DNA from: a virus
IMG/VR virus record: IMGVR_UViG_3300031730_000002
Location: 1-64,000 of that record
Length of the DNA: 64,000 bases
Direction: 5' to 3' (one strand)
Part shown: positions 3,972 through 33,459 of the stretch, piece after piece
Layout: each line of letters opens with the position of its first letter
How positions within the stretch are numbered: position 1 is the first letter of the stretch
Made by a program: the position numbers and the translations under genes
Notes under the pieces: generated by a model
What the model was told of the DNA's origin: nothing
What the model saw: the letters and a program-made list of their open reading frames with translations, nothing else
Databases searched by the model: none

Positions 3972-4389
3972 CAAGTCGCCGCTGATTCCGCGGGTGCCCT
4001 TTTCTCCGACCACGCAAAAGCAGGTCGAAGATCTGGAGGACAAACTCGCAGAGATGGAGGATGAAGCCGATATGGTCGATGCAGACCCTGGCAAGGAAAC
4101 CCTCATCTCGATCGATATGCTGGCCGAGACCGTGCAGCTATACCGCAGCACCAAACGCTTACACCGTCGCGCGATCCAATTTGACAGCAAGGCACCGCTG
4201 AATCAGCAGGCACAGGTGGTCAATAGCCTCGGCGGCTTGCTGAAGTCTCTCGCTGCCTTGCAGATTCGCCTGTATGACAGCGAGCGGCTGAAGAAACTTG
4301 AAACCGCACTCATTGAGATGCTGAGCGACTTGCCGGTGGAGCAGCAGAACACCTTTTTGGCCCGCTATAAGGAATTGACGGATGTTTGA
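3952..4389 (+). CDS. terS: probable terminase small subunit
   Basis: 145-aa helical protein overlapping the start of the large terminase; synteny only. Confidence 0.55.
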   Translation: MSLTSPDKSPLIPRVPFSPTTQKQVEDLEDKLAEMEDEADMVDADPGKETLISIDMLAETVQLYRSTKRLHRRAIQFDSKAPLNQQAQVVNSLGGLLKSLAALQIRLYDSERLKKLETALIEMLSDLPVEQQNTFLARYKELTDV

Positions 4390-6049
4390 GGGTCACTTCG
4401 AGCGCATTCGCGCGGCTGTGCAGAAAGAGTATGGCCTCGGTACTGTGCCGGAGTGGATCTGCAAGCACACAAAGCTGGGTGGCAAGCCCTACAGCTACAA
4501 GAATCACGAGTTTCAGCTGCAGATTCTGCGTGATCAGAGCCCTGAGAAGATCATTCGCAAGTGCTCACAGGTCGGTTTGACCGAGTTGAGCTTCCGCGAG
4601 GTGCTCGCGATACTGCGAATCATCGACGGCTTTACCGCGATTTACACCATGCCGAGTGCCACTGACATGGCAAAAGTGGTGCAAACACGCCTCGATCCGA
4701 TCGTGACAGGCAGTGCTGACCTGACATATGCGCTCTCTTCGAGCGTGGATTCGGCCATCGTGAAGCAGTTTGGCCTCAGTTTTCTCCATTTGTCGGGTAC
4801 TTTTGGCCAACAGCAGGCCATTTCAGTGCCTGCGGACATGGTTGTGCACGATGAGGTCGATTTCAGCAATTTGAAGGTGCTGACGACCTACGAGTCACGA
4901 CTCACGCACAGCAAGTACAAGATGCGGCGCGAGTTCTCGACTCCGACGCTGCCAGGGCGCGGGATCTCAGCCCGATTCGATCGATCGCGCCGCCATTTCA
5001 ATATGGTGAAGTGCCATCGCTGCAATCACTGGTTTTTGCCCGACTATTACCTGCATGTGAGGGTGCCGGGGTACGACGACGACCTGAAACTGATCACCAA
5101 CCGCAATCTGCACCACTACGACTGGCGGCATGCGGCGCTGCACTGCCCGCACTGCGCTGGAATTCCGAGCTTGCAGCACGAGAACCGCAACTGGGTGCTC
5201 GAAAATCAGAATGAGAACTACACCGCGGCAGGGTATGCGGTGTCCCCATTCGACGCGCCTAACATCATCTCGACTCCGTTCCTGGTGGAGAAGTCGACAA
5301 AGTACGAGCGCATTGCCGACTTCGTCAATTTCAATCTCGGGCAGCCGTATGAGGACGCGACAGTAAGCCTGACCGACTCATTCCTGCGTAGTTTGTTCGT
5401 GCCAGGCAGCCCACCAACGAGTAGTGCCAATTTCATGGGCATCGACATGGGCGCTTTGTGCCATATCGTTGTCGGGAATGCCCAATCGACCGGCGAGTTG
5501 GTGGTTTTGCACTACGAGCGGGTGACTTTGGCCGATTTCGAGCGGCGCAAACGCGAGCTTGCGATCGAGTATCGAGTGCTTGTGACGGTGATGGATGCCT
5601 TGCCGTATACCGACATGGTAATGCGGCTGCAAATTAGCGACCCGAATTTGTTCGGTGCGATCTATCTCGACATGAAGAATATCGTCACCTATGCGGTGAA
5701 GGACCAGCGAAAAGACCCTGAGAAGGGCAAGTTGAACATCCGGCAGGTGCAAATCAACCGGAATGTGGCATTCGACGACATGGTGCAGTCGATTATTCGG
5801 CGCGAGGTGGTGTTTTTCGACCGACCGGAGAAGGACATCTTCATTGCGCACCTGTTGGACATGAAGCGGCAGACAGTATCGGACTCGAATGGTGAGCTGG
5901 TGTACAAGTGGATTAAGTCGGAGCAGGGGGACGACCACTTCATGCATGCGATGATGTATCTCTACACCGCGTGCAAGCTGCGGGCGCTGACGACGGGCAG
6001 TGCGCCGATTCAGACGCTGATTTCGAGCTTCAGGGTCAAAACCATGTGA
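4382..6049 (+). CDS. terL: terminase large subunit (lambda GpA-like)
   Basis: Walker A-like RKCSQVGLTE, Walker B VVHDEVD, FSTPT motif, CxxC pairs, nuclease MGIDMG...DDHFMHA. Confidence 0.9.
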   Translation: MFEGHFERIRAAVQKEYGLGTVPEWICKHTKLGGKPYSYKNHEFQLQILRDQSPEKIIRKCSQVGLTELSFREVLAILRIIDGFTAIYTMPSATDMAKVVQTRLDPIVTGSADLTYALSSSVDSAIVKQFGLSFLHLSGTFGQQQAISVPADMVVHDEVDFSNLKVLTTYESRLTHSKYKMRREFSTPTLPGRGISARFDRSRRHFNMVKCHRCNHWFLPDYYLHVRVPGYDDDLKLITNRNLHHYDWRHAALHCPHCAGIPSLQHENRNWVLENQNENYTAAGYAVSPFDAPNIISTPFLVEKSTKYERIADFVNFNLGQPYEDATVSLTDSFLRSLFVPGSPPTSSANFMGIDMGALCHIVVGNAQSTGELVVLHYERVTLADFERRKRELAIEYRVLVTVMDALPYTDMVMRLQISDPNLFGAIYLDMKNIVTYAVKDQRKDPEKGKLNIRQVQINRNVAFDDMVQSIIRREVVFFDRPEKDIFIAHLLDMKRQTVSDSNGELVYKWIKSEQGDDHFMHAMMYLYTACKLRALTTGSAPIQTLISSFRVKTM

Positions 6050-6116: not shown

Positions 6117-7637
6117 ATGAACCTGCTCGACAAACTCACCTCCTTTCTGGCGCCCAAGCCAACGGCATGGGACGGGGTGGTGACGGAAGCGGCGAGCACG
6201 GCGCTGCCGGTGCAGGCGCCGCCGAAGGTCAAGCCCAAGCAGCAGTCGGTGCCGCCGTTCTCGCCGCAGGTCAAGCCGGGCGAGGCCGTGCTGGTCAAGG
6301 CCGACCGGCAGCTGGCCAACACGGACATCCTCAGCTACCGGCGCAGCGCGACGACGGGCGCGACGCTGCGCGACTTGGTGGTGGCAAGCCCCGACCTGTC
6401 GGCGGCGGTCTCGGCCAACTTGCGGCTGGGCATCACCGAGAGCTACATCCTGAAGGCGTGGAATCCGGACGGCAGCTTCAACGCCGACGCGACGCGGCTG
6501 GCCTACCAGCTGCTCATGCGCATGGACCTGGTGCCGGACTACACGCAGGGCTTCAACGTCACGAACAGCTTGCTGGCCACGTCGGAGGCGCTGGCCAAGG
6601 ACATGATGACCTACGGCGCCATGGCGATGGAGCTGGTGCTCGACTCGTCGCGCCTGCCGGCGCAGTTCGTGCCGCTGAGCAGCAGCCAGATCTTTTTCTT
6701 CCCTGAAGACAAGGGTGTGCGGCCGGTGCAGCGGATCGCTGGTGTCGACATCGACATGGACCAGCCGACGTTCTTCTACCTCTCGCTCGATCAGGACTTG
6801 CTGACCGCCTACGCCACGTCGCCGCTCGAAGCAGCGATTCAGCCGGTGCTGGCCGACAGCGAGTTCACGAACGACATGCGCCGGGTGATCAAGCGCGCGG
6901 CGTTCCCGCGGCTGGACGTGGAGATCGACGATGAGCTGATGCGCCAGTCGATCCCGCCCGAGATCTTGAACGACCCGGTGAAGCTGACCGACTACCGCAA
7001 CACAGTCACTCGGGCAGTGTCCGACGTGGTCAACGGGCTGGCGCCGGAAGATGCGCTGGTGCACTACAGCTTCCTGAAGGTCAGCTACATCGAGGGTGGC
7101 ACAGGCCCGGTCGAGCAGACGTTCCAGGGTGTGCAGGATCTGATCAACGCCAAGCTGTCGACCGGTGCGAAGGTTCTGCCGAGCGTGCTGGGTCATGGCA
7201 GTGGCAGCCAGAACGTCGCGAGCAGCGAGACGCTGCTGTCGATGAAGACGGCAGACGGCCAGATCCGCCGCAAGCTCAACGAGATGTACAGCAAGGCGTT
7301 CACGCTGGCTGTGCGCCTGTTCGGCATGGACGTGTGTGTCGAGTTCACCTACCGCCCGATCAACCTGCGCCCGACCATCGAGGTCGAGGCGTTCGAAGCG
7401 CAGCGGCAGGCTCGGATTCTGGAGCTGCTGTCGGTGGGCATGATGGGTGACGAAGAGGCTTGCCTGGAGCTGACCGGCAACTTGCCGCCGGCAGGGTTCA
7501 AGCCGCTGTCGGGCACGATGTTCTACAAAGCCGATGCTTCAGTGCCGGCCGGCTCGGAAAGCTCGACCACCGGCGGCTTGAACCAGGCGATCACGAGCGA
7601 TGCGCCGAAGGGCAAGCGCGGAGGCAACGGCAAATGA
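6117..7637 (+). CDS. portal protein
   Basis: 506 aa immediately after terL; size and position. Confidence 0.8.
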   Translation: MNLLDKLTSFLAPKPTAWDGVVTEAASTALPVQAPPKVKPKQQSVPPFSPQVKPGEAVLVKADRQLANTDILSYRRSATTGATLRDLVVASPDLSAAVSANLRLGITESYILKAWNPDGSFNADATRLAYQLLMRMDLVPDYTQGFNVTNSLLATSEALAKDMMTYGAMAMELVLDSSRLPAQFVPLSSSQIFFFPEDKGVRPVQRIAGVDIDMDQPTFFYLSLDQDLLTAYATSPLEAAIQPVLADSEFTNDMRRVIKRAAFPRLDVEIDDELMRQSIPPEILNDPVKLTDYRNTVTRAVSDVVNGLAPEDALVHYSFLKVSYIEGGTGPVEQTFQGVQDLINAKLSTGAKVLPSVLGHGSGSQNVASSETLLSMKTADGQIRRKLNEMYSKAFTLAVRLFGMDVCVEFTYRPINLRPTIEVEAFEAQRQARILELLSVGMMGDEEACLELTGNLPPAGFKPLSGTMFYKADASVPAGSESSTTGGLNQAITSDAPKGKRGGNGK

Positions 7638-7960
7638 CCACGCCGATGCAGATCGTCGAGCACAAGCGCGGCGACACCTTCAACCCGACTTGCACGTACC
7701 TGAATTCGGCAGGAGTTGCCTACGACTACACGCTTGACGGCATCACGATCGCGAGTCAGGTGCGTACTCCGGCTGGTAAGCTGGTTGGTACTCTGACTGC
7801 GGCACCCGGTGTCGGCACGGGAGTATTCACGCTGGAGTCCGGAAGTACTCAAAATTGGCCTCTCGGCTCACTGCGCTGGGACATACAATTCACCCAAGGC
7901 GGCCACATCTTTTCCACCAAAACGGCAGAGCTGATGCTTGTGGCCGACAACACCCTGTAA
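7634..7960 (+). CDS. Ig-like adaptor, BppU N-terminal/LtfC-like, 108 aa
   Basis: KRGDTF...SQVRT...WDIQF pattern; ATG coupled to the portal stop. Confidence 0.6.
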   Translation: MTTPMQIVEHKRGDTFNPTCTYLNSAGVAYDYTLDGITIASQVRTPAGKLVGTLTAAPGVGTGVFTLESGSTQNWPLGSLRWDIQFTQGGHIFSTKTAELMLVADNTL

Positions 7961-7972
7961 ACGGAGAATCGC

Positions 7973-8401
7973 ATGTCCAAGTCAAATACCTACGAAAACG
8001 ACCTCCTGCTTTTGCTGTTCAATGCGACAGCGATCGCGAACGTCGCGGACAATGCCGCCAGCTCTCCGCTGACCAACCTGTTCGTCGCGCTGCATACCGC
8101 CGACCCCGGCGAAGCTGGCACGCAGACCACGTCCGAAGCGACCTACACGAGCTATGCCCGTGTCTCTGTCGCCCGCACCGCGGGTGGCTGGACGGTGGCT
8201 GCCAACTCGGTCTCGCCGGTGGCGACGATCTCGTTCCCGGCTTGCACGGCCGGCACCAACACCATCACCCACTTCTCGGTGGGTGCGGCGACCAGCGGAG
8301 GCTCGAAGATCTTCTACAGCGGCACCGTGACGCCGAACATCAGCGTGAGCACCGGTGTGACGCCGCAGCTCGCGACCAGCTCGACCATCACCGAAGACTA
8401 A
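7973..8401 (+). CDS. small beta-rich virion fibre/filament subunit, 142 aa
   Basis: YENDLL...VALHTADPGEAG...YARVSV...FPAC...ITHF motif family; strong GGAG RBS; homologous to both halves of 32587-33459. Confidence 0.75.
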   Translation: MSKSNTYENDLLLLLFNATAIANVADNAASSPLTNLFVALHTADPGEAGTQTTSEATYTSYARVSVARTAGGWTVAANSVSPVATISFPACTAGTNTITHFSVGAATSGGSKIFYSGTVTPNISVSTGVTPQLATSSTITED

Positions 8402-8419
8402 GTCTAGGGCCTGGTGGCG

Positions 8420-8454
8420 GCACAGGCTGAGGCTGGTCCTCCAGCCTGTGCTTT
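8420..8454 (+). terminator. terminator/attenuator-like hairpin after the filament-subunit gene
   Basis: GCACAGGCTG...CAGCCTGTGC 10-bp stem followed by TTT. Confidence 0.55.
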
Positions 8455-8472
8455 CGCGTATCTGGAGTAAAC

Positions 8473-9738
8473 ATGCTGCTGCTCAATTCCGCCACGATGA
8501 AGGTCACGATCACCACCGGCTCTGCCGGTGACATCGAGATCGGCTGGTCGGGTATCGACAAGACCGGGACTGGGCCGGCGTCATATTCCTACGCCTCAGT
8601 GCCGACCGATGTGCCGGCGAACATCAGCGGGAGTGGCACGAACGATCTTGTGCCAGTACCAGCAGCGAGTACCGAACGCAATGTCGGCGCAATGTACGCA
8701 GCGAACAACCACGCCACGACATCGAATGCCATCACGATCCAGCTCACGGACGGCACCGACACAACGCGGCTGTGGCGCGGCACCTTGCTCGCGCAAGAGG
8801 CTGTGGTGTTCGATCAGGGCGGTGTGTGGACCGTGTACGGTACGGACGGCAACCCAAAGCAGACTGGTCAGCTTCTCGGTTTGGTGCTCGGCGCTGTTGG
8901 TGCTGCCAATCTGGCAGCATCGGATACCGACACTCTGAATGTCTTTGCTCGCAAAGTTGCTGGCTGCATGGCGCTCAAGACACAAGCACCGTCCGGTATC
9001 GAGCAGTTCTTGCAAGAGAGTTTGAGCCACAACGGCAGCTCGCTCTACTTGCCGAACAACGGCACGACGGTTGGCCTCAACACCGGGCTCGCCTGGACGA
9101 CTGGCGGCACCGTCAGCCACCCCACACCAAGCAGCACCAGCCCGGCGATCTACAACCAGCAAAAGCGCACGCGCTGGGCCAACGTCGTCACCACGACCAA
9201 TCAGGTGCTCGGCTTGCGCACCGCCACCGCGGAGAAGCGCTACTGGCGCGGCAACGCGGCAGGGCTTGGTGGCTGGTTCTTCCACGCGCGGTTTGCTATC
9301 GGCTTGTGGCCGGCGGCCACCGTGCGCCTGTTTGTCGGCTTGAACGACTCGAACTCGGGCTGGGTTATCTCCGACACGCTGACCGGCAACGGCTGCGGGT
9401 TCTGGCATGACACGACTGACGCCGCTTCGGTTCTCAGCTTTGCTACCCGAGACGGCACGACCGCCAACAAGGCGGCGATCACACTCGCCGCAAACCTTGC
9501 TGCTGGACAGTGTTTTGATGCCTACATCTACTCGCCACCAAACGGGAGCTTCATCGGTTACCGGCTGGTCGAGTTGAACACCGGCACGGTGCTGGTCGAC
9601 ACCACGACCACAACGAACATTCCACTGACGACTGCATTCCTTGGGCAAGAGCTTGCGATGTCGAACGGTACAGCCAACACCACAGTCACCACGACTGCCT
9701 TCGAGCTGTCAGGCCACAGCTGCCAGTCCGACTACTAA
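8473..9738 (+). CDS. virion fibre-associated protein, 421 aa, beta-rich
   Basis: Thr/Gly/Asn-rich; GGAG RBS; inside the fibre cassette. Confidence 0.65.
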   Translation: MLLLNSATMKVTITTGSAGDIEIGWSGIDKTGTGPASYSYASVPTDVPANISGSGTNDLVPVPAASTERNVGAMYAANNHATTSNAITIQLTDGTDTTRLWRGTLLAQEAVVFDQGGVWTVYGTDGNPKQTGQLLGLVLGAVGAANLAASDTDTLNVFARKVAGCMALKTQAPSGIEQFLQESLSHNGSSLYLPNNGTTVGLNTGLAWTTGGTVSHPTPSSTSPAIYNQQKRTRWANVVTTTNQVLGLRTATAEKRYWRGNAAGLGGWFFHARFAIGLWPAATVRLFVGLNDSNSGWVISDTLTGNGCGFWHDTTDAASVLSFATRDGTTANKAAITLAANLAAGQCFDAYIYSPPNGSFIGYRLVELNTGTVLVDTTTTTNIPLTTAFLGQELAMSNGTANTTVTTTAFELSGHSCQSDY

Positions 9739-9748
9739 GTAGCAGCCC

Positions 9749-12700
9749 ATGAGTGCTGCCGTTCTCGTAGCTGGGGACTTCTTCTATCGCATAGCGACAG
9801 TCCCAAATCAGTTTCCGATTACTGTCACAGGTTGGATGCGCTGTGACTCGTTGGGTGCTGCCGCGTCTCCGATTTATGTTCGTTATGCCGACGCAGGCGG
9901 CAGCGAGCGATCGGGCATGTTTATCGACGCTGCTACCACAGGTGTTTTCATTGAGGGCACTTCGTCGACTGGCAACTGGAGCCCCAGTGAGCCTCGTTCG
10001 TTGGGGGTCTTCCAGCACTGGACCTATCGTAATGACGGCACCACGCACACGTTGGCTTTCAATGGCCGCGTTACCCGCGAAACAGGTGGTCAGCCGGCTA
10101 CAGACACATCCCCTTCGATCGCAATCGGAGGTGCTGGCAGCGAGTTCATCCTAGGGCAGATCTCTCGTGTCAAGGTGTGGGAAGCCATCTTGACTGACGC
10201 AGAGGTTCGCGCTGAGATGGCTTCAGTCGCACCTGTTCGTACCTCGAATCTGTGGGCTGATTACCGCTTCGCGTCGGGAGCGTTGCTTACAGACTCCAGC
10301 GGGAACAGTCGCAGCCTGACCGCGGCGACCAATCAGGTCAATGGCGCTGACGAAGTGCCTCTCGGCCCGATCATCTTCACGCAACCGGTGCGTCAGCAAG
10401 TATTCGCAGGGAAGGACGCGACCTTCAGCGTACTTGCCTACCCGAGCGCAGGTACGCTGAGCTATCAGTGGAAGCGCGATGGGGTCAATGTCGGCACCGA
10501 TAGCTCTACGTACACGCTGCCAACGAGCATCGCAGACAACGGCGCGCAGATCACAGTCGCCATCACCGACAGCAACGCAACGACAACATCAAGCGTGGCG
10601 ATGCTGGCTGTGCTGCGCACATCGCGCAGCCACGGGGCGAAGGTCAAGAAGACTCGTCGCAGCACTCTGATCGAGTACGCAAACTCGGTTGCATCGTGGT
10701 TCAGTGCTCTCCTGGTGCCCAACGGCAGCTTTGCCGATGGCATGGTGAACGCTCCGAGTGGGGCGAGCGGAGACGGCGTTGGTGCCTCAACCGGCACAGG
10801 AACAGCGACTGGTGTCGGTCAGGCTGCAACGCTGCAGCCCGGCACCGCGACTGGCTCCAGCACAGCGACAGGCGTTGGTCGAGCCAATGCGGAAGGTGTC
10901 GAGTCCGCGGCCGGCACTTCGACCGTCACCGGTGTCGGGTCAGCAGCCTTTCTCGGTGTAGCCGCTTCAACCGGAACCGGCGCAGCGGCGGCCGATGGCC
11001 GATCGCTCTCGACGCAGGTCGCCGCCGCGGCTGGTACGAGCACGCCGACTGCAGTCGGCCAGTCGACCACGGTCGAGCCTGGTGCTTCGACCGGGGCAAG
11101 CACAGCAACAGCCACAGGCCAGACCAGCGCACTTGCGGACGCGGCCTCGGCCGGCATCTCGACGGTCTCTGGAGTGTCTCAAGCGATCTCGATCGCAGAC
11201 GGCGCTGCCGCAGGCACCAGCACAGCCACTGGTGTGGGTGCGACCGAGCAGGTCGCGTCGGCTGCAGGCACCAGCACTGCGACTGCAGTAGGTCAATCGC
11301 TCGCGATCAGCGACGGCGCGGCGCCGGGCACCAGTACTGTCACCGGCGTCGGGCAGGCAGCAACTGCTGCTGTTGCTGCCGCGGACGGCATTGCAACTGC
11401 GACTGCAACCGGGCAATCGCTCTCGACACAGGTCGGCTCGGCTGTAGGCACTAGCACTGCGGACGCTACGGCGGGAGCGTCGATCGGCGCTGCCGCAGGC
11501 GCGAGCACGCCACTTGCGGTTGGCCAAGCCCTCTCGACGCAGGTCGGCGCGGCAGCAGGCACCAGCACAGTGGCAGCCACGAGTGACGCACTTGCGATTA
11601 GCGTGGGCTCGGCCGCCGGCACCAGCACAGCGGCTGCTGATGGTCAGACGACATCGATCGCTACCTCAGTCGGCGCCAGCACAGTTGCAGCCGATGGCCG
11701 ATCGCTCTCGACGCAGGTCGCCAGCTCGACCGGCACCGGTGCAGCTACCGGCGTCAGCAGCCAAGCCGGCACAGGCAACGCTGCGGCAGATGGCACCAGC
11801 ACCGCGACAGCGGTTGGGCAGTCGCTCTTCACAGGTGACGCGAGCGCGGCAGGCACCAGCACAGTCCAGGCTGATCGGCTGATGCTGGTTGCGGCAGTTG
11901 CCAGCTCGATCGGCGCGAGCACGGTATCTGGTGTCGGTGAGGCGCCGGCTGCAGGCGTCGCCGCGGCGACCGGTACGAGCACTGTTGCTGCTGCAGGCGA
12001 GTCGCTCTCGACGCAGGTTGCCAGCTCGACCGGCACGAGCACGGTGCTCGGGATCGAGCAAGGCGCGGCGTCGGTCGCTTCGTCGAACGGGGCTGGCGAT
12101 GCTGCGGCTGTCGGCCAGTCGACCGTCGATGCAGTTGTGGCCGCAGCCTCGACCAGCACTGTCACAGGTGATGGTCAGGCGCTGGCGCGCGCTGACGCGA
12201 GTGCGGCCGGCACCAGCACTGCGCAAGCGTCACCGTCTCTGCTGAGTGTCGCGAGTTCGAGCGGTGTCAGCACGGCCGCGGCCACCGGGCAGTCGATCGC
12301 TGATGCCACGGCAGCAGCGGCTGGCGCGAGCACGGCTGCAGCGGACGGCGCCCCACTTGCGATCAGCGTTGGGGCGGCGACAGGCACGAGCACGGCACTT
12401 GCCGACAGCCAGGCGCCAGCGGTCGGCACCGGCGCAGCAGCAGGCACGAGTACTGTGCAGGCCCAGCCGGCGCTGCTTGGTGTTGCTTCGTCGGTCGGGA
12501 CTGCTGCGTCGGTCGTTGTCGGTCAGGCCAACGCGCTCGCAACAGCCGCTGCTGCCGGGTCGAGCACCGCTGATGCGCTGGGTGTCCAGCAAGGGCAGGC
12601 TGTCGCACAGTCCACCGGCGCAGGCACTGCGCTGGCAGTCGGCGCGCCGCTGGCAGTCGCTACCGCAGCGGCAGCAGGCAGCTCGACCGCACTTGCGACA

Positions 12701-13321
12701 GCGAACGCGCCGAGTGTTGGCTCTTCTGCAGGTTCGAGCACGGCGAGTGCCGGCGGCATCATGGCCATCCAGGCCGTTGCCACGAGCGCTGCAGCTGCAT
12801 CGGATACTGCGGTCTCCGACGCCATCGCGCTTTTGGTGGCCACGGCTTCAGGGTCGTCTATCGCCGCTGCGGTGTCCGATGCTATCGCGTTGATGGTGGC
12901 CACGGCAGTCGGGTCTTCTGATGTTCAAGGCTACCCGAGCAGCTCGGCAACATCACCCGCGACTGCCGCAGGCACCTCGACTGCTCAGGCTGTTGGCCAA
13001 AGCGCGCTGACCGGTGTCGGCAATGCGGCAGGGTCTGCGACAGTTCTCGGTTACTGGCAGAAGTCGGGCTATATCGACGTTTCTGTGTCGATCGCACCGC
13101 GGCTCACGCCGAAGATCAACGTGGCATTCCAGAACTTCAGCGGTGTGCGCGTGGTGCTCGCGTCTTCGGCCGGTCGGATTCAGGTTGATCTGCCAGCTCA
13201 AGGCGGGAGTACCTTTACTGGCTTTGGTCACCGCACGACTTACCTGCTGATGCCCACGCAGCAACTCGTGCTTGAGTACGCACCAACTGCGTTTCAACTG
13301 CAGCCAGCTTCTCAGGTCTGA
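9749..13321 (+). CDS. 1190-aa repeat protein: LamG/ConA-like N-domain, Ig-like domain, then ~39 x ~20-aa A/G/S/T repeats
   Basis: GQISRVKVWEAILTDAEV (LamG-like), FTQP...TFSV...YQWKRDG (Ig-like), repeated xxVAAAAGTSTATAVGQSL units. Confidence 0.8.
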   Translation: MSAAVLVAGDFFYRIATVPNQFPITVTGWMRCDSLGAAASPIYVRYADAGGSERSGMFIDAATTGVFIEGTSSTGNWSPSEPRSLGVFQHWTYRNDGTTHTLAFNGRVTRETGGQPATDTSPSIAIGGAGSEFILGQISRVKVWEAILTDAEVRAEMASVAPVRTSNLWADYRFASGALLTDSSGNSRSLTAATNQVNGADEVPLGPIIFTQPVRQQVFAGKDATFSVLAYPSAGTLSYQWKRDGVNVGTDSSTYTLPTSIADNGAQITVAITDSNATTTSSVAMLAVLRTSRSHGAKVKKTRRSTLIEYANSVASWFSALLVPNGSFADGMVNAPSGASGDGVGASTGTGTATGVGQAATLQPGTATGSSTATGVGRANAEGVESAAGTSTVTGVGSAAFLGVAASTGTGAAAADGRSLSTQVAAAAGTSTPTAVGQSTTVEPGASTGASTATATGQTSALADAASAGISTVSGVSQAISIADGAAAGTSTATGVGATEQVASAAGTSTATAVGQSLAISDGAAPGTSTVTGVGQAATAAVAAADGIATATATGQSLSTQVGSAVGTSTADATAGASIGAAAGASTPLAVGQALSTQVGAAAGTSTVAATSDALAISVGSAAGTSTAAADGQTTSIATSVGASTVAADGRSLSTQVASSTGTGAATGVSSQAGTGNAAADGTSTATAVGQSLFTGDASAAGTSTVQADRLMLVAAVASSIGASTVSGVGEAPAAGVAAATGTSTVAAAGESLSTQVASSTGTSTVLGIEQGAASVASSNGAGDAAAVGQSTVDAVVAAASTSTVTGDGQALARADASAAGTSTAQASPSLLSVASSSGVSTAAATGQSIADATAAAAGASTAAADGAPLAISVGAATGTSTALADSQAPAVGTGAAAGTSTVQAQPALLGVASSVGTAASVVVGQANALATAAAAGSSTADALGVQQGQAVAQSTGAGTALAVGAPLAVATAAAAGSSTALATANAPSVGSSAGSSTASAGGIMAIQAVATSAAAASDTAVSDAIALLVATASGSSIAAAVSDAIALMVATAVGSSDVQGYPSSSATSPATAAGTSTAQAVGQSALTGVGNAAGSATVLGYWQKSGYIDVSVSIAPRLTPKINVAFQNFSGVRVVLASSAGRIQVDLPAQGGSTFTGFGHRTTYLLMPTQQLVLEYAPTAFQLQPASQV
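10769..13060 (+). repeat. ~39 tandem degenerate ~60-nt (20-aa) coding repeats
   Basis: G(T/A/S)ST core every 17-20 aa; identical 33-bp DNA copies at 10991-11023 and 11690-11722. Confidence 0.85.
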
Positions 13322-13356: not shown

Positions 13357-14157
13357 ATGTGGCGTTTCGGTAATCTGTGGGCGGGTAACGAGGCGTCTTA
13401 CGAGGCCCTGATCGCTGTCAGTGCGCAGGTATCTGCGATGATTGGCTCCGGTCAGCAGGCCCCACTGCCGGAACTGCTGCACATCGATTCAGGTGTGGGC
13501 GTCGTGAGTATCGAGGGTGCTTTGATTCCTGGCGATGCCGGGTTTTATTCGTACTTCGGGTATGTCGGCTACAACGACATTCGCACCGCTGCAATGGCAG
13601 CGGTGATGAATCCCGACGTGAAATCCATCATGCTTCACATGAACTCGCCGGGTGGCGCAGTCGACGGCTGCCAAGACTGCGCCAACATGCTTGCGCAGAT
13701 CTCGTCGCTCAAGCCGACGATGGTTTTCGCCGACAACAGCCTCGGATCAGGCGCTTACTGGCTTGCAACTTCGGCCGGGAAGATCTTCATCAGCACCACG
13801 ACCGAAGCTGGCAGTGTTGGCGTGATCGCCAAAGCGGCCGAGTACAGCAAGGCGCGTGCAGCAGCCGGCATTACCGACCTGGTTGTGCGCTCTGGCCCTT
13901 ACAAGCAGCTGATCAATCCGGTCGAACCGCACAGCGATGCAGGTATTGCGATGCTGCAAGAGCGGGTGAACGCAATTGCCGATGTGTTTTTGGAGCATGT
14001 CTCTGATGCACGCGGTGTTTCGGCCAAGCAATTCGATGCGACAATGGGCCAAGGACGAGTATTCACCGGCGCGAAAGCGGTCGCAGTGGGAATCGTCGAT
14101 GGTCTCGCTACATACGATTCCGCACTTTCTGCCGCAATACTCATTCAACCCCGTTGA
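13357..14157 (+). CDS. S49 (SppA/ClpP-like) prohead protease
   Basis: MNSPGG, GSGAYWLA, GSVGV, GPYK motifs. Confidence 0.92.
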   Translation: MWRFGNLWAGNEASYEALIAVSAQVSAMIGSGQQAPLPELLHIDSGVGVVSIEGALIPGDAGFYSYFGYVGYNDIRTAAMAAVMNPDVKSIMLHMNSPGGAVDGCQDCANMLAQISSLKPTMVFADNSLGSGAYWLATSAGKIFISTTTEAGSVGVIAKAAEYSKARAAAGITDLVVRSGPYKQLINPVEPHSDAGIAMLQERVNAIADVFLEHVSDARGVSAKQFDATMGQGRVFTGAKAVAVGIVDGLATYDSALSAAILIQPR

Positions 14158-14839: not shown

Positions 14840-15313
14840 ATGAGCCGCGCCTTCTACCGTCAAGAAATCCTGGCGACCCAAAACGCCCCGGTCACGTCCC
14901 GACTGGGCCTGGTCAGCGCGCCCTACGGTGCGACCGAGATCGGCAAGTTCGTCAAGAACGGCGCCGAGTCGGCCCACATCCTGTGCGCCGCCGGTGATGC
15001 CATCGAAGGCTACATCGCTTCTGTCGAGTCTGCCACGTCGGCTGGCTTCGGCATCGGTGCAGTGCAGCAGCGCGACCCGAAGTTCGTGACCTTCGACGGC
15101 TTGCAGGCCACGCCCGGCACCGGCACCGTGACCATCGGCTCGTATGTCGTGTGCGGCACGGTCGTCGCCAAGGACACCGCGCTGACCGCTTACGCGAAGG
15201 TCTGCAAGGCCACCACCGAACCGCCTGCCGGCCCCTACGCATGGCGCGTGGTGTCGCTGGGTTCGGTCGGCACCGGCGCTGTTGGCACCACTGGTCTCAT
15301 CGAGCGCGTCTAA
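14840..15313 (+). CDS. head decoration/cement protein
   Basis: 157-aa beta-rich protein directly before the capsid gene; AAGGA RBS. Confidence 0.7.
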   Translation: MSRAFYRQEILATQNAPVTSRLGLVSAPYGATEIGKFVKNGAESAHILCAAGDAIEGYIASVESATSAGFGIGAVQQRDPKFVTFDGLQATPGTGTVTIGSYVVCGTVVAKDTALTAYAKVCKATTEPPAGPYAWRVVSLGSVGTGAVGTTGLIERV

Positions 15314-15355: not shown

Positions 15356-16576
15356 ATGGGTGCGAAGTTTTTCAATGCTGCTGGCGCGATCCAGGACGTC
15401 GATCTGCCTGCGAGCATCTACTCGCTGGCTTCCGCCGCGAACCGGTCCGTGGCCGCCTACATCAACTCGAAGTACGAGACCGATGAGGCCAAGTTCGGTA
15501 CGACCTTCAACCAGATGCTTGCCGCGGCTGGCCTGCTGGTTCCCGATCCCAAGGTGCAGAAGAACTTCGGCCTCCGCGCGCCGATGATGGCCGACGTGCT
15601 TGCGGGCACGGTCGACTTCTCGGCTGCCTCGAACAGCCAACAGTTCGGCAATGCCGCACCGTCCACCGGCACCTCGCGCACCCTGTTCCCGGCCGCACTG
15701 ATCGCCTACATGGAGACGGCGCTCGTCAAGAACTACGAGATGGACGCCGCGGTGTTCGATCAGATGGTCGCGACCGACTTCTCGATCAACGGTGACCGTT
15801 TCGAGCAGCCGCAGATCAACATGGCCACCCTGAACGGCCCGAACAGCGCGCTGGCTTCGCGCCGAGCGCAGCTCGCCGGCCCGGCCGCGATGATGCAGTT
15901 CACGACTTCGGACGTGACCCGCAAAATCCCGACCTACGCACTGGGCATGGAGTTCTCGAAAGAGGCTCTCAAGGCCACCACGCTGGATCTGGTCGGCATG
16001 TCCGTCAGCCGTCAGCTGATGGTCGAGCGCGACTCCTGGGTGAACTCCTACATCAGCGACATCTACGCTGGTGACCTGGACATCAACACCGGTTCGCTGT
16101 CTTCGCTGGGCTACTCGGTGAACACCAGCACGCTGGACGCGACCGCGACCACGACCATCACGCAGAAGGCGTGGCTGAAGTGGCTGTTCCGCAATCGCAA
16201 GTACCGCATCATCAACTGGGTGATGTGCGACCTGGCGACGTACCTGCTGATCGAAGGTCGCACCGGTCGTCCGTCGCTGACCGCGATCGACATGACCCTG
16301 CCGCGTCTCGACCCGCAAGCGCGGATCGTCAACGGCGTCATCGGCGACGTGAAGGTCTTCATCGTCGACGATGCGAGCGCTGGTGGCCCGCTGCCGGCCG
16401 GCACCGTGCTGGGCTTGGACAGCCGCTACGGCATCGCACGCGTGCGCAACGCGAGCGCTGACGTGTCGGCCGCCGAGAGCTACGCTCTGCGCCAGACCGA
16501 AGCCTTCATGGTTCAGTTCGCCGAGATCTGCTACCGTCTGCACCCCGACGCCTTCGACACCCTCGTGGTGGCGTAA
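15356..16576 (+). CDS. major capsid protein
   Basis: 406 aa, AAGGAG RBS, strong codon bias, position in the head module. Confidence 0.85.
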   Translation: MGAKFFNAAGAIQDVDLPASIYSLASAANRSVAAYINSKYETDEAKFGTTFNQMLAAAGLLVPDPKVQKNFGLRAPMMADVLAGTVDFSAASNSQQFGNAAPSTGTSRTLFPAALIAYMETALVKNYEMDAAVFDQMVATDFSINGDRFEQPQINMATLNGPNSALASRRAQLAGPAAMMQFTTSDVTRKIPTYALGMEFSKEALKATTLDLVGMSVSRQLMVERDSWVNSYISDIYAGDLDINTGSLSSLGYSVNTSTLDATATTTITQKAWLKWLFRNRKYRIINWVMCDLATYLLIEGRTGRPSLTAIDMTLPRLDPQARIVNGVIGDVKVFIVDDASAGGPLPAGTVLGLDSRYGIARVRNASADVSAAESYALRQTEAFMVQFAEICYRLHPDAFDTLVVA

Positions 16577-26510: not shown

Positions 26511-27370
26511 TGGCACTCCCGCAAATCCTTTTGCCCTACGGGACGCCACCGTTCCTGCGGGATACGCACGAGCTTGAGACGATCTCGCTCTATGCGAACA
26601 CACAGGTGCAGACCGGTGCGGCGATCCGTCGTCGCATGTGGGTCAGCGCACCGCGGTATGCCAATGTGGTGCTTGAGCTGAGCACGCCGCTGATGGAGGA
26701 CTTCGATGAGTTCTACGAAGAGACGCTGGGCGGTGGTGTCAAGAAGTTCTCTGCGCAGGTCCAGAACCAGGGACCAGGTCTTCTGTGGTGGTCGTGCCGT
26801 TTCTTCGAGCCTTACACGGTCGAGTATCTCGGCGGCCTTTGGTGGCGTGTCTCGGCCAAGCTGATCTTGTTCGATGAGGGCAGCGAGGATGGTCCGGAAC
26901 CTACAACGCTGGTTGGTAGTGTTCGTGTTGATCTACAGGCTACTGCTTTGCTGGTGGTCGAGCAGCCGTTGAGCGGTAGCGTGACGATCGCACTTGAGTT
27001 CAATCCAAACATAACTGCCTTGTCAGGTTCGGTCGTCGCTGCGCTGGAATATGCAACCTACTTTGGACCGGCACCTGTCGGATCTGCTGCAGGTACATCG
27101 ACAGTGTTGGGTGTCAAAGCTGGTCCTTTGGTTGCTGCGGCTGCAGGCACATCGACTGCATCTGCAGTCGGTCGAGGTGTTGCTTCGACGGTGGGGTCTT
27201 CGGCAGGTGCTGCCGTGGCCAGTGGGGTTGGGGGCAGCAATGTTGGTGTTGGATCTGCGGCAGGCACATCGACTGCCAACGCTGTTGGGCCGGCTGAGTA
27301 CTTGCTGCTCGAAGACGGAGTTAGCTACTTGCTGCTCGAAGACGGCGTTTCAAAACTGATTTTGGGGTAA
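26510..27370 (+). CDS. distal-tail (Dit-like) protein 1 with C-terminal repeat arm
   Basis: FDEFYEETLGGG...CRFFEPY...WRVSAKL; then 3 LxGSV repeats, 4 AAGTST-type repeats and YLLLEDGVS x2. Confidence 0.65.
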   Translation: MALPQILLPYGTPPFLRDTHELETISLYANTQVQTGAAIRRRMWVSAPRYANVVLELSTPLMEDFDEFYEETLGGGVKKFSAQVQNQGPGLLWWSCRFFEPYTVEYLGGLWWRVSAKLILFDEGSEDGPEPTTLVGSVRVDLQATALLVVEQPLSGSVTIALEFNPNITALSGSVVAALEYATYFGPAPVGSAAGTSTVLGVKAGPLVAAAAGTSTASAVGRGVASTVGSSAGAAVASGVGGSNVGVGSAAGTSTANAVGPAEYLLLEDGVSYLLLEDGVSKLILG

Positions 27371-29334: not shown

Positions 29335-29759
29335 AACACTGGGCCTACGAACATATCGGCAAGCCTTACACGGATGGCAACGACGGCTTGCCTATGGACG
29401 GTCCTGACACGTTCAACTGTTGGGGTTTTGTGCGCTTCATCTTTCGCACGGTGCGCGGCATTGAGATGCCGTTGGTGCACATCGATCGCTTCTTGTCTGA
29501 TGATGCAGCGAATCGAGTGGCGATCCGGGAAGTCTTCTCCAAGAGCGGCTGGCGTCCAGTGAGAGACTCGATCCCGCAGGAGTTCGACATTGCGCTGACA
29601 TCGAATGTGAACGGTAGACACGTAGGCATCGCCAGTCACGTGAATGACCGTATGCATTTGATCCATGCGATCGAGCGTGAGGGGGTGTCTGCGATCTCAT
29701 TCGCGGATCTGTGGATGCTTGGATATCGCAAGCCGACTTTCTGGAGATACCAAGCGTGA
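29331..29759 (+). CDS. NlpC/P60 family tail-tip protein
   Basis: IGKPY...GPDTFNCWGFV...HVGI...IHA. Confidence 0.9.
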   Translation: MKHWAYEHIGKPYTDGNDGLPMDGPDTFNCWGFVRFIFRTVRGIEMPLVHIDRFLSDDAANRVAIREVFSKSGWRPVRDSIPQEFDIALTSNVNGRHVGIASHVNDRMHLIHAIEREGVSAISFADLWMLGYRKPTFWRYQA

Positions 29760-32586: not shown

Positions 32587-33459
32587 ATGAGCCAACTATC
32601 CAACTACACCGAGAACGAGCTTGCCGATTTCATTCGAGGGCAGGGAGCGGCGGGCATCAACGCCATCTCGCTCTTCTACATCGGGCTTGCGACTGCAGCG
32701 AGCGACGGCAGCATCACGGAGTGCTCTGGCACCGGGTATGCACGGCAAGCGTATGGGCGCGGCTTGACCCAGTGGTGCGGTACTCAAGGCTCTGGCACTA
32801 CGCTGGCCAGTACTGGGGTCAGCCACGCGATCAGCAACAACAACTCATGCTCCTTTGGCACATCGGGTGCAGCGTGGGGCACTGCCACACACGCAGTGCT
32901 GTACAGCGCAATCACTGGCGGCAATGTCATCGCTTACTGCGAACTGCCCAGTCCGATCTCTATCGGGTCTGGTGTGCCGGTTAGCTTGGCTGCAGGCGCG
33001 ATCTCGATGACGTTGGGGTTGACTGGCGGGTTGAGCAACTACCTGTCCAACAAGCTACTCGATTTTGTGTTTCGCGCCGTGGCCTACACGATGCCGGCCA
33101 ATCTGTTCTTCGGCCTGTTCACGACCGCGCCGACGAATGCTGGTGGCGGCGTCGAGGTGTCGGGTGGGGCCTACGCCCGCCAGAGCCTGCCGGCGTCTAT
33201 GGCTGGCCTCTGCGGTACGCAGGGTGCTGGAACCACAGTGGCCAGCACCGGTACAAGCGGTCGAATTGCCAACAACCTGACCCTTGCTTTCCCCACTCCA
33301 ACGGCCAACTGGGGCACAATCACGCATGAGGCGGTTTTCGATGCTGTGAGCGCTGGGAACCTGCTCTTCTGGAACGTGCTCGATGTGCCCCGCACGGTGC
33401 TCTCAGCCAGCAGCCCGCAGACGCATGCAGCAGACACATGGGAGCTGACCTTTGCCTAA
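32587..33459 (+). CDS. tandem two-domain paralogue of the 142-aa filament subunit
   Basis: LSNY...GL.T...YARQ...F...WGT.TH...GN repeated twice. Confidence 0.75.
   Translation: MSQLSNYTENELADFIRGQGAAGINAISLFYIGLATAASDGSITECSGTGYARQAYGRGLTQWCGTQGSGTTLASTGVSHAISNNNSCSFGTSGAAWGTATHAVLYSAITGGNVIAYCELPSPISIGSGVPVSLAAGAISMTLGLTGGLSNYLSNKLLDFVFRAVAYTMPANLFFGLFTTAPTNAGGGVEVSGGAYARQSLPASMAGLCGTQGAGTTVASTGTSGRIANNLTLAFPTPTANWGTITHEAVFDAVSAGNLLFWNVLDVPRTVLSASSPQTHAADTWELTFA

What the first reader, a model, noticed from the sequence alone, without database searches (positions are those of the whole stretch)
7634..13321. Candidate ruler-templated virion filament: a ~39-repeat strand protein plus a small, probably high-copy subunit, inserted between portal and protease
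Seen: four genes interrupt the usual portal-protease adjacency. They encode an Ig-like adaptor (108 aa), a 142-aa beta protein, a 421-aa beta protein and a 1190-aa protein. The last has LamG-like and Ig domains followed by ~39 units of 17-20 aa (consensus like xxVAAAAGTSTATAVGQSL) made almost entirely of small residues, with little obvious hydrophobic core of their own. The 142-aa gene has a strong RBS and is followed by a terminator-like hairpin (8420-8454), the same layout as the capsid and tail tube units, which suggests high copy number. Inference: each repeat is an extended beta-strand that completes or threads one subunit (or oligomer) of the 142-aa protein. The long protein would then act as a second tape measure, setting the length of a flexible filament that carries a lectin-like tip. 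About 780 residues at ~0.33 nm each gives up to ~250 nm, the scale of the head and tail filaments flagellotropic phages use to catch flagella.
Basis: partly seen in the sequence, partly recalled or inferred. Interest (0 to 1): 0.85.

Follow-up and report, generated by a model that had tools for sequence, protein, structure and literature searches.

The report
Long beads-on-a-rope phage fibre module
Four genes between the portal and protease genes of an 86-kb long-tailed phage most likely build a "beads-on-a-rope" fibre, a design already solved by cryo-EM in a few other phages, here with 39 docking repeats instead of 2 to 11.

Summary
Four co-oriented genes (108, 142, 421 and 1190 aa) lie between portal and S49 protease. 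The 1190-aa protein carries 39 units of 18-20 aa (aa 341-1106).

The 142-aa protein belongs to Pfam PF23140, the "bead" gp80 of podophage GP4 fibre I (PDB 8JOU). In GP4, A1002 and Bas63, cryo-EM shows dimers of this fold strung on an extended "rope" polypeptide by beta-sheet augmentation.

Across 73 non-redundant IMG/VR loci with a bead gene, 44 have a strongly periodic ORF. Its best lag is exactly 20 or 40 residues in 39 of them.

The same docking motif recurs on a Dit-like tail protein in this genome, and a tandem double-bead gene lies near it.

The mechanism is therefore a known kind. New here are the length, the siphophage setting, a lectin-like/Ig tip and an adaptor that is not gp77.

AF2 of the rope alone gave a low-to-moderate-confidence beta-solenoid, so a self-folding rod remains a rival. 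The 250-nm length and the flagellotropic role are unsupported.

This scan has reached the same reading on other genomes.

The parts
7634..7960 (+). 108-aa Ig-like (BppU-N / T5 p132-like) protein. Candidate collar or adaptor that anchors the fibre near the portal.
   Evidence: The start overlaps the portal stop (ATGA). AF2 pLDDT is 93.5. Best solved matches are phage fibre-docking Ig proteins: T5 tail-tip chain 7qg9_R (Z 9.8), NF5 baseplate (Z 9.3), 80alpha baseplate (Z 8.9), Sf14 neck chain 9c39_I (Z 8.8) and TP901-1 BppU (Z 7.9). BFVD hits include BppU-N proteins. It is not PF23148 (gp77). It has 28 homologues, found on the same contigs as the closest bead homologues.
7973..8401 (+). 142-aa 'bead' subunit, Gp80 family.
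   Evidence: Pfam PF23140, E 4.8e-16 and 59.7 bits against a cut-off of 27. PDB 8JOU chain a, E 2.8e-7. GGAG lies 6 nt before the ATG. More than 8000 relatives were found and the top 120 all carry PF23140.
8417..8453 (+). Stable hairpin after the bead gene. Possibly a partial terminator or mRNA stabiliser.
   Evidence: -35.3 kcal/mol, z -3.0. Not a terminator by the strict scan. Present in relative L010 but not conserved family-wide.
8473..9738 (+). 421-aa beta protein in a variable cassette slot. Probably a fibre or receptor-binding protein; its role in the module is unknown.
   Evidence: phrog_13925, E 1.1e-21. Atlas neighbours are DUF2793, Mtd_N and ConA-like clusters, TM 0.63-0.74. No PDB sequence match. 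The genes in this slot differ in relatives L010 and L036.
9749..10618 (+). Rope protein, distal tip: ConA/LamG-like jelly-roll (aa 1-~175) plus Ig domain (aa ~204-290).
   Evidence: The Ig domain is shown by sequence. The jelly-roll is seen only in a low-confidence model (Z 10-12 to trans-sialidase lectin domain and pentraxins). N-terminal homologues are P0203, P0222 and L089. There is no Shine-Dalgarno before the ATG.
10769..13066 (+). Rope protein, 39 docking units of 18-20 aa (aa 341-1106).
   Evidence: AF2 predicts two short beta-strands per unit.
13067..13321 (+). Rope protein, C-terminal ~84-aa globular domain, the candidate proximal anchor.
   Evidence: Conserved in P0168 (66% identity), P0233 (54%) and the L010 rope, while N-terminal domains and repeat numbers differ. 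The polarity is the same as in GP4 gp79, A1002 gp39 and the Bas63 collar: repeats N-terminal, anchor C-terminal.
27068..27298 (+). Outside the finding: about 4 rope units of the same AAGTST motif on the C-terminal arm of a Dit-like tail protein (gene 26510-27370).
   Evidence: The motif [AS][AS]G[TSA]ST occurs 18 times in the six-frame translation of the window. Fifteen hits are in the rope, 3 are here, and none are elsewhere.
32587..33459 (+). Outside the finding: 290-aa tandem double Gp80 protein directly after the J-like central fibre gene.
   Evidence: PF23140, E 7.6e-58, two domains.

Best explanation
The module encodes a chain-like ('beads-on-a-rope') accessory fibre.

The 1190-aa protein is the rope. 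Its C-terminal ~84-aa domain fixes it to the virion, probably at a collar of the 108-aa Ig-like protein around the portal/neck. Its 39 twenty-residue units each offer two short beta-strands. Its N-terminal lectin-like and Ig domains form the free tip.

Dimers of the 142-aa Gp80-family protein clamp onto successive units by beta-sheet augmentation. About two units per dimer would give some 17-26 dimers per rope and a flexible fibre of roughly 50-110 nm. The length would be set by the repeat number.

The fibre most likely makes the first, reversible contact with the host surface or its polysaccharides.

Shown: family membership of the bead, the repeat anatomy, synteny, and the fold of the 108-aa protein.

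Inferred: binding, stoichiometry, anchoring site, length and function.
For: 1. The bead is a Gp80-family member (PF23140, E 4.8e-16; 8JOU_a, E 2.8e-7).

2. In solved virions this fold always forms dimers strung on an extended rope by augmented beta-sheets. GP4 has 5 dimers, A1002 has 11 and Bas63 has 2 (papers PMC13730344 and PMC12609058).

3. GP4's gene next to gp80 (gp79, 325 aa) has about 11 units with a significant 20-aa period. Lag-20 autocorrelation is 0.29, against a shuffle maximum over all lags of -0.25 +/- 0.09. This fits 5 dimers at two units each.

4. In 73 non-redundant IMG/VR loci with a bead gene, 44 have an ORF with periodicity of at least 0.8. The best lag is 20 in 27 and 40 in 12, out of 32 lags tried, and 40 of the 44 lie on the bead's strand. 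Only 4 of 1158 other ORFs reach that score. Unit counts run from about 6 to about 61.

5. The closest relatives (L010, L036) keep the order portal, 108 aa, bead, variable genes, rope, protease. Their ropes are 1341 and 955 aa, with a conserved C-terminal domain and different or absent tips.

6. Lacusarx has bead, lectin-tipped repeat protein and a true gp77 adaptor (PF23148, E 5e-24) in a row.

7. The AAGTST unit occurs only in the rope and on a Dit-like arm, and a tandem double-bead gene lies in the same tail-tip gene block.

8. The bead gene has GGAG and the rope gene has no Shine-Dalgarno, as expected for a many:1 ratio.

9. The 108-aa fold matches phage fibre-docking Ig proteins.
Against: There is no direct test of binding for this pair.

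AF2 of the rope alone folds the repeats as a curli/TPS-like beta-solenoid. The last ~11 units reach pLDDT 65-81, and VIA gives Z 22.6 to CsgA but at rmsd 8 A. Self-folding is therefore not excluded.

That gp79 is GP4's rope is my inference. It is not in the PDB by sequence and the GP4 paper was not held.

The solved A1002-type rope (KPP25 homologue) shows no clear sequence period, so periodicity is not a requirement of ropes.

No gp77-family adaptor exists in this genome.

The 108-aa fold is a common Ig type, and Z values of 8-10 lie near the background of such searches.
Confidence: 0.68

Rival explanations
1. The 1190-aa protein folds on its own into a thin beta-solenoid rod (curli- or TPS-like, one 20-aa unit per rung, about 19 nm for 39 units) that carries the lectin/Ig tip. 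The Gp80-like protein is a separate whisker or cap that touches it at most at one end.
For: AF2 builds a strand-turn-strand solenoid from the repeats, with pLDDT 65-81 for aa ~880-1100. VIA gives Z 22.6 to CsgA and 12.5-17.6 to EtpA. Each unit has V4, V16 and L20, which could line a narrow core.
Against: About 27 of the 39 units have pLDDT 25-50, and no residue reaches 90. The alignment had only 8 rows. The rmsd to CsgA is 8 A. The tight, strand-specific association of 20/40-aa-periodic proteins with bead genes and the frequent 40-aa super-period are not explained by a lone rod. In every solved case the bead's partner is an extended chain.
Confidence: 0.17
2. The repeat region is a flexible, possibly glycosylated Ala/Ser/Thr-rich spacer that merely holds the lectin/Ig tip away from the capsid. 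The repeats have no binding partner.
For: Composition is 80% A/S/G/T/V with very few charged residues. AF2 confidence over most of it is low.
Against: A pure spacer would not keep an exact 20-residue register with conserved G, S-T and G-Q positions over 39 diverged copies. It would also not share that register with proteins next to bead genes in dozens of unrelated phages, or recur as 4 units on a tail protein in the same gene block as a double-bead gene.
Confidence: 0.08
3. The long protein is an internal head or ejection protein, or a second tape measure, given its place in the head gene block.
For: It lies between the portal and protease genes.
Against: It has a lectin-like domain and an Ig domain, which are typical of exposed parts. 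It is predicted almost entirely as beta strand or coil, with a single 10-residue helix and none of the long helices of tape measures. The real 1720-aa TMP is at 21348-26510. The same slot in FelixO1-like phages holds collar-whisker genes.
Confidence: 0.03

Closest known systems
Fibre I of Ralstonia podophage GP4 (gp80 dimers, rope protein, gp77 fibre-tail adaptor; PDB 8JOU; Zheng et al., J Mol Biol 2023, known to me through PMC13730344 and PMC12609058)
   Same: The bead belongs to the same Pfam family. The rope is separately encoded in the same operon. The neighbouring repeat protein has a 20-aa period. The anchor is C-terminal. A small Ig-like protein sits in the module.
   Different: 39 units against about 11 (5 dimers). 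The rope carries lectin-like and Ig tip domains. The host virion is a siphophage. The module sits between portal and protease. The small Ig protein is not PF23148. The window's 421-aa protein and GP4's 568-aa gp78, the other large gene of that module, are unrelated.
Chain-like fibre of Pseudomonas podophage A1002 (nozzle-rope gp39 with gp40/gp41 dimers; PMC13730344)
   Same: Many bead dimers (11) sit on one rope by augmented beta-sheets. The rope has an Ig-like domain at its distal part. Two bead genes occur in one genome.
   Different: There the rope is the N-terminal part of a split nozzle protein and shows no clear sequence period (KPP25 homologue). The fibre wraps the tail tube. Here the rope is a dedicated 1190-aa protein with regular repeats.
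Collar-whisker complex of Felixounaviruses Bas63 and Sf14 (PMC12609058; PDB 9c39)
   Same: An Ig-like protein near the neck, bead-type whisker dimers on a rope segment, and genes in the head block. The 108-aa model aligns to Sf14 neck chain 9c39_I (Z 8.8).
   Different: There the rope is a short N-terminal extension of the collar protein and holds 2 dimers. Here rope and Ig protein are separate, and the rope is about 10-20 times longer.
T5 collar protein p132 and TP901-1 BppU N-terminal domain (PDB 7qg9, 4v96)
   Same: Best structural matches of the 108-aa protein. Both dock fibres or receptor-binding proteins onto a ring.
   Different: They sit at the tail tip, not at the neck. There is no sequence similarity, and the fold is a common Ig type.

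Membership tests
GP4-type chain-like (beads-on-a-rope) fibre | Bead subunit of the Gp80 family (PF23140) | tested here: met
   E 4.8e-16 and 59.7 bits against a cut-off of 27. 8JOU_a, E 2.8e-7.
GP4-type chain-like (beads-on-a-rope) fibre | Extended rope polypeptide with serial docking sites, encoded beside the bead gene | tested here: met
   39 units of 18-20 aa lie 1.3 kb downstream in the same operon. The same 20-aa period is seen in GP4 gp79 and next to bead genes in 39 of 44 periodic loci. This holds at sequence level only.
GP4-type chain-like (beads-on-a-rope) fibre | Bead dimers bound to the rope by beta-sheet augmentation | not testable with these tools
AF2 of the rope alone predicts two short strands per unit, which is compatible but not a test.
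GP4-type chain-like (beads-on-a-rope) fibre | gp77-family fibre-tail adaptor (PF23148) | tested here: not met
   No PF23148 match at E<=1 in the whole 85,865-bp genome. The 108-aa protein has no PF23148 hit at E<=1. GP4 gp77 and Lacusarx gp193 score E ~1e-24 in the same search.
Felixounavirus collar-whisker complex | Ig-like collar protein whose own N-terminal extension is the rope | tested here: not met
   The 108-aa protein is a bare Ig domain with strands from residue 7. The rope is a separate gene. Fold similarity to the Sf14 neck chain is Z 8.8.
Self-folding beta-solenoid fibre (curli/TPS-like) | Repeats fold alone with high confidence into a solenoid | tested here: inconclusive
   Mean pLDDT 43. 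Units 1-~27 score 25-50 and the last ~11 score 65-81. CsgA Z is 22.6 at rmsd 8.0 A. The alignment had 8 rows.
Tape measure protein | Long alpha-helical protein encoded between tail chaperones and distal tail genes | tested here: not met
   The rope is predicted almost entirely as beta strand or coil, with one 10-residue helix, and lies in the head block. The TMP is 21348-26510 (phrog_1533, E 2.6e-38).
ConA-like lectin / LamG domain (rope tip) | Jelly-roll fold recognised by profile or by a confident model | tested here: inconclusive
   No Pfam hit. The model of aa 1-170 has pLDDT 23-69, yet aligns to trans-sialidase lectin domain (Z 12.3) and pentraxins (Z 10-11). In relative L010 a separate 406-aa protein carries Laminin_G_3 (E 1.1e-7).

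The most novel reading that the evidence does not exclude
One virion uses a single 20-residue docking code at two sites: a 39-unit neck rope with a lectin tip and a 4-unit arm on the distal tail protein. Monomeric and tandem beads serve these sites. Across phages the repeat number (about 6 to more than 60 units) would be a freely tunable ruler for fibre length. The long neck fibre would work as a 'fishing line' that captures cell-surface polymers or appendages before the tail engages.
Probability: 0.3. Interest if true: 0.75.

Novelty: new variant of a known kind. Interest (0 to 1): 0.55.

Why it matters
Chain-like fibres have been described structurally in only a handful of phages, with 2-11 bead dimers. 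The A1002 text I searched never uses the word 'repeat'.

This module, and the survey done here, suggest three things.

First, the design is widespread. 477 IMG/VR stretches and more than 8000 bead proteins were found, nearly all unannotated.

Second, the rope in this bead subfamily is a regular 20-residue repeat array whose copy number varies about ten-fold. That makes fibre length directly testable as a ruler function.

Third, tips and adaptors are swappable. This would help annotation of phage receptor-binding modules and the design of fibres of chosen length.

Tried and rejected

Searches that led nowhere:
- The exhaustive search with the whole rope was swamped by the Ig domain. It yielded only two N-terminal and two C-terminal relatives.
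- A word search with aa 1-200 among proteins of 654-2083 aa found nothing.
- The GP4 paper is not held.
- GP4 gp79 and gp78 are not in the PDB by sequence, whereas gp77 and gp76 are. So 'gp79 = rope' rests on position, periodicity and elimination.
- BLASTP found no similarity for the 108-aa protein vs gp77, the 421-aa protein vs gp78, or the rope C-terminus vs gp79.

My own analyses that failed:
- My first motif matrix scan of the window was badly scaled and useless. A plain motif search replaced it.
- A stricter periodicity statistic failed even on the true rope and was dropped.
- A window-count test at fixed lags was unspecific. The best-lag test is the one I rely on.

Ideas checked and not supported:
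- A conserved terminator after the bead gene is not supported.
- A link to the phiCbK head filament is not supported. Two protein searches of the phage collection, one to E 5 with the window's bead and one to E 0.01 with Lacusarx's, showed no Caulobacter phage among the listed hits. The Lacusarx paper mentions no filament.
Full report
WHAT IS THERE

The window belongs to an 85,865-bp IMG/VR virus record that CheckV rates complete. It is a siphophage. It has terminase 4382-6049, portal 6117-7637, S49 protease 13357-14157 and major capsid protein 15356-16576. It also has a tail terminator, a tube-like protein, a 1720-aa tape measure (21348-26510) and a lambda J-like central fibre (29711-32575).

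The 1190-aa protein has a globular N-terminal part, 39 repeat units (aa 341-1106) and an ~84-aa C-terminal domain. The repeat is far beyond chance. Lag-20 autocorrelation is 1.27 against 0.11 +/- 0.07 for shuffles. Spacing is 20 residues 26 times and 18 residues 4 times. The consensus is ATAVAAAAGTSTATAVGQSL. The DNA copies have diverged: only one 60-bp pair is left. The array is therefore old and kept at the protein level.

WHAT THE PARTS ARE

The 142-aa protein is a member of Pfam PF23140, 'Podophage GP4 fiber I protein gp80' (E 4.8e-16). It matches PDB 8JOU chain a (E 2.8e-7, ten chains).

Published cryo-EM work shows what this fold does.
- In GP4, five gp80 dimers are linked by an elongated, separately encoded rope protein.
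- In A1002, eleven dimers of two gp80-like proteins each form an augmented beta-sheet with the rope part of nozzle protein gp39.
- In Bas63 and Sf14, two whisker dimers sit on the N-terminal rope extension of an Ig-like collar protein at the neck (PMC13730344 and PMC12609058).

The 108-aa protein folds with high confidence (pLDDT 93.5) as an Ig-like sandwich. Its best solved neighbours are phage proteins that dock fibres onto rings:
- T5 tail-tip chain 7qg9_R (Z 9.8)
- NF5 and 80alpha baseplate chains (Z 9.3 and 8.9)
- Sf14 neck chain 9c39_I (Z 8.8)
- TP901-1 BppU (Z 7.9)

Among predicted viral structures it matches stand-alone ~105-115-aa proteins and BppU-N domains. It is not a gp77 (PF23148) relative, and the genome has none. 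Its start codon overlaps the portal stop, which suggests coupled translation. This last point is an inference.

The 421-aa protein resembles DUF2793, Mtd_N and ConA-like clusters in the ESM Atlas. It occupies a slot whose content differs between relatives. I read it as a swappable fibre or receptor-binding protein, but I could not place it further.

IS THE LONG PROTEIN THE ROPE?

Four lines of evidence point that way.

1. GP4's gene immediately after gp80 (gp79, 325 aa) is itself a repeat protein with a significant 20-residue period. About 11 units span aa 17-243. Lag-20 autocorrelation is 0.29, against a shuffle maximum over all lags of -0.25 +/- 0.09. Eleven units for five dimers suggests about two units per dimer. 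That gp79 is the GP4 rope is my inference. It is absent from the PDB by sequence, as is gp78, while gp77 and gp76 are present. The GP4 paper was not available.

2. I fetched 80 IMG/VR loci encoding bead relatives, out of 477 confirmed stretches. Among 73 non-redundant loci, 44 contain an ORF with strong internal periodicity. The best lag, chosen freely among 32 lags, is 20 in 27 loci and 40 in 12. Forty of the 44 are on the bead's strand. Only 4 of 1158 other ORFs of 150 aa or more reach the same score. Most loci without such an ORF end within about 2.5 kb of the bead gene. Unit counts range from about 6 to about 61.

3. The closest relatives (L010, L036) share terminase, portal (58-63% identity), the 108-aa protein (60-63%), the bead (78%) and the protease. 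They keep a repeat protein directly upstream of the protease, but of 1341 and 955 aa. The C-terminal domain is conserved, while the tip is absent or different. In L010 a Laminin_G_3 domain sits on a separate 406-aa protein. Cultured phages Lacusarx and RXM have the bead gene followed by 543- and 503-aa proteins with a globular head and G/A/S/T-rich units. Lacusarx then has a true gp77 adaptor.

4. Within this genome, the motif [AS][AS]G[TSA]ST occurs 18 times in all six frames. Fifteen hits are in the rope and three are on the C-terminal arm of a Dit-like protein (26510-27370). A 290-aa protein made of two tandem Gp80 domains (E 7.6e-58) is encoded right after the J-like gene, in the same tail-tip gene block. 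I checked it myself.

Expression signals fit a many-to-one ratio. There is GGAG before the bead gene and no Shine-Dalgarno before the rope gene.

WHAT SPEAKS AGAINST, AND WHAT WAS NOT TESTED

The decisive computation, folding beads with rope units against controls, could not be run.

AF2 of the whole rope, with an 8-row alignment, gave mean pLDDT 43. The first ~27 units score 25-50. The last ~11 units score 65-81 and are drawn as a strand-turn-strand solenoid that aligns to curli CsgA (Z 22.6, but rmsd 8 A) and EtpA.

No residue reaches pLDDT 90, and in my experience structure predictors often build solenoids from such repeats. Still, a self-folding rod cannot be excluded, and I give it about 0.17.

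The A1002-type rope (KPP25 homologue) has no clear period. Periodicity is therefore typical of this bead subfamily rather than of ropes in general.

The hairpin after the bead gene is real but is not a canonical terminator. It is not conserved across the family.

STOICHIOMETRY AND SIZE (INFERENCE)

Known ropes use about 45 residues per dimer in GP4 (227 aa for 5 dimers). A1002 uses about 30 (about 331 residues for 11 dimers, a rope-like structure of about 300 A).

For 766 residues this gives 17-26 dimers, or 34-51 beads. At about 27 A per dimer the fibre would be about 50-70 nm. If each unit held a dimer it would be about 105 nm.

Polarity matches all solved cases: free N-terminal end and C-terminal anchor.

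COMPARISON AND NOVELTY

The bead meets the family definition, and the rope meets it at sequence level. The gp77 adaptor feature is not met. The collar-with-own-rope feature of Felixounaviruses is not met.

The module therefore works like GP4 fibre I but is a distinct variant. It has a dedicated 1190-aa rope with a lectin-like/Ig tip, a BppU-N-type Ig protein instead of gp77, a location between portal and protease in a siphophage, and a second short rope on the distal tail.

It is not the longest of its kind, since L010 has about 61 units. Other agents of this scan have reported similar or longer ropes on other genomes. I did not test those reports and do not count them as evidence.

A flagellotropic role is unsupported. 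CbK-type phages gave no bead match among the listed hits.

VERDICT

Binding, stoichiometry, anchoring and function remain inferred.

Confidence in the beads-on-a-rope reading is 0.68. Interest is 0.55.

Noticed in passing
window 26510-27370 (arm about 27068-27298): A Dit-like distal tail protein ends in about 4 units of the same AAGTST rope motif, followed by a duplicated YLLLEDGVS tail. This is the only other place in the window with the motif.
   Followed up: partly
window 32587-33459: A 290-aa protein made of two tandem Gp80 (PF23140) domains lies directly after the J-like central fibre gene. It looks like a covalent 'bead dimer', possibly for the Dit arm.
   Followed up: partly
window 9735-9751: The rope gene starts 10 nt after the 421-aa gene's stop and has no Shine-Dalgarno sequence. 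The bead, 421-aa and protease genes all have GGAG.
   Followed up: no
L010 13087-17112 and 10129-11349: The closest relative has a 1341-aa rope of about 61 units with no globular tip. It encodes a Laminin_G_3 domain on a separate 406-aa protein, so the tip can be fused or separate.
   Followed up: partly
L003 (Sphingobium phage Lacusarx) 8001-10368; L002 (Citromicrobium phage RXM) 1179-3547: Cultured CbK-like siphophages carry a bead gene, a 503-543-aa protein with a globular head and G/A/S/T-rich units, and a small protein. In Lacusarx that small protein is a true gp77-family adaptor. All are annotated as hypothetical or 'head protein'.
   Followed up: partly
L084 (Ralstonia phage GP4) 2206-3183: GP4 gp79, next to gp80, has about 11 units with a significant 20-aa period. 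It is absent from the PDB by sequence and is the likely identity of the GP4 rope.
   Followed up: partly
window 14840-15313: A 157-aa protein between the scaffold-like gene and the capsid gene has no family match. It is 62% identical to an ORF after the protease gene in relative L036 (the locus ends before a capsid gene). It may be a decoration or head accessory protein.
   Followed up: no
G000:C1:81164-81271 (outside the window): A weak fourth PF23140 match (E 0.0028, below the cut-off) on the minus strand.
   Followed up: no
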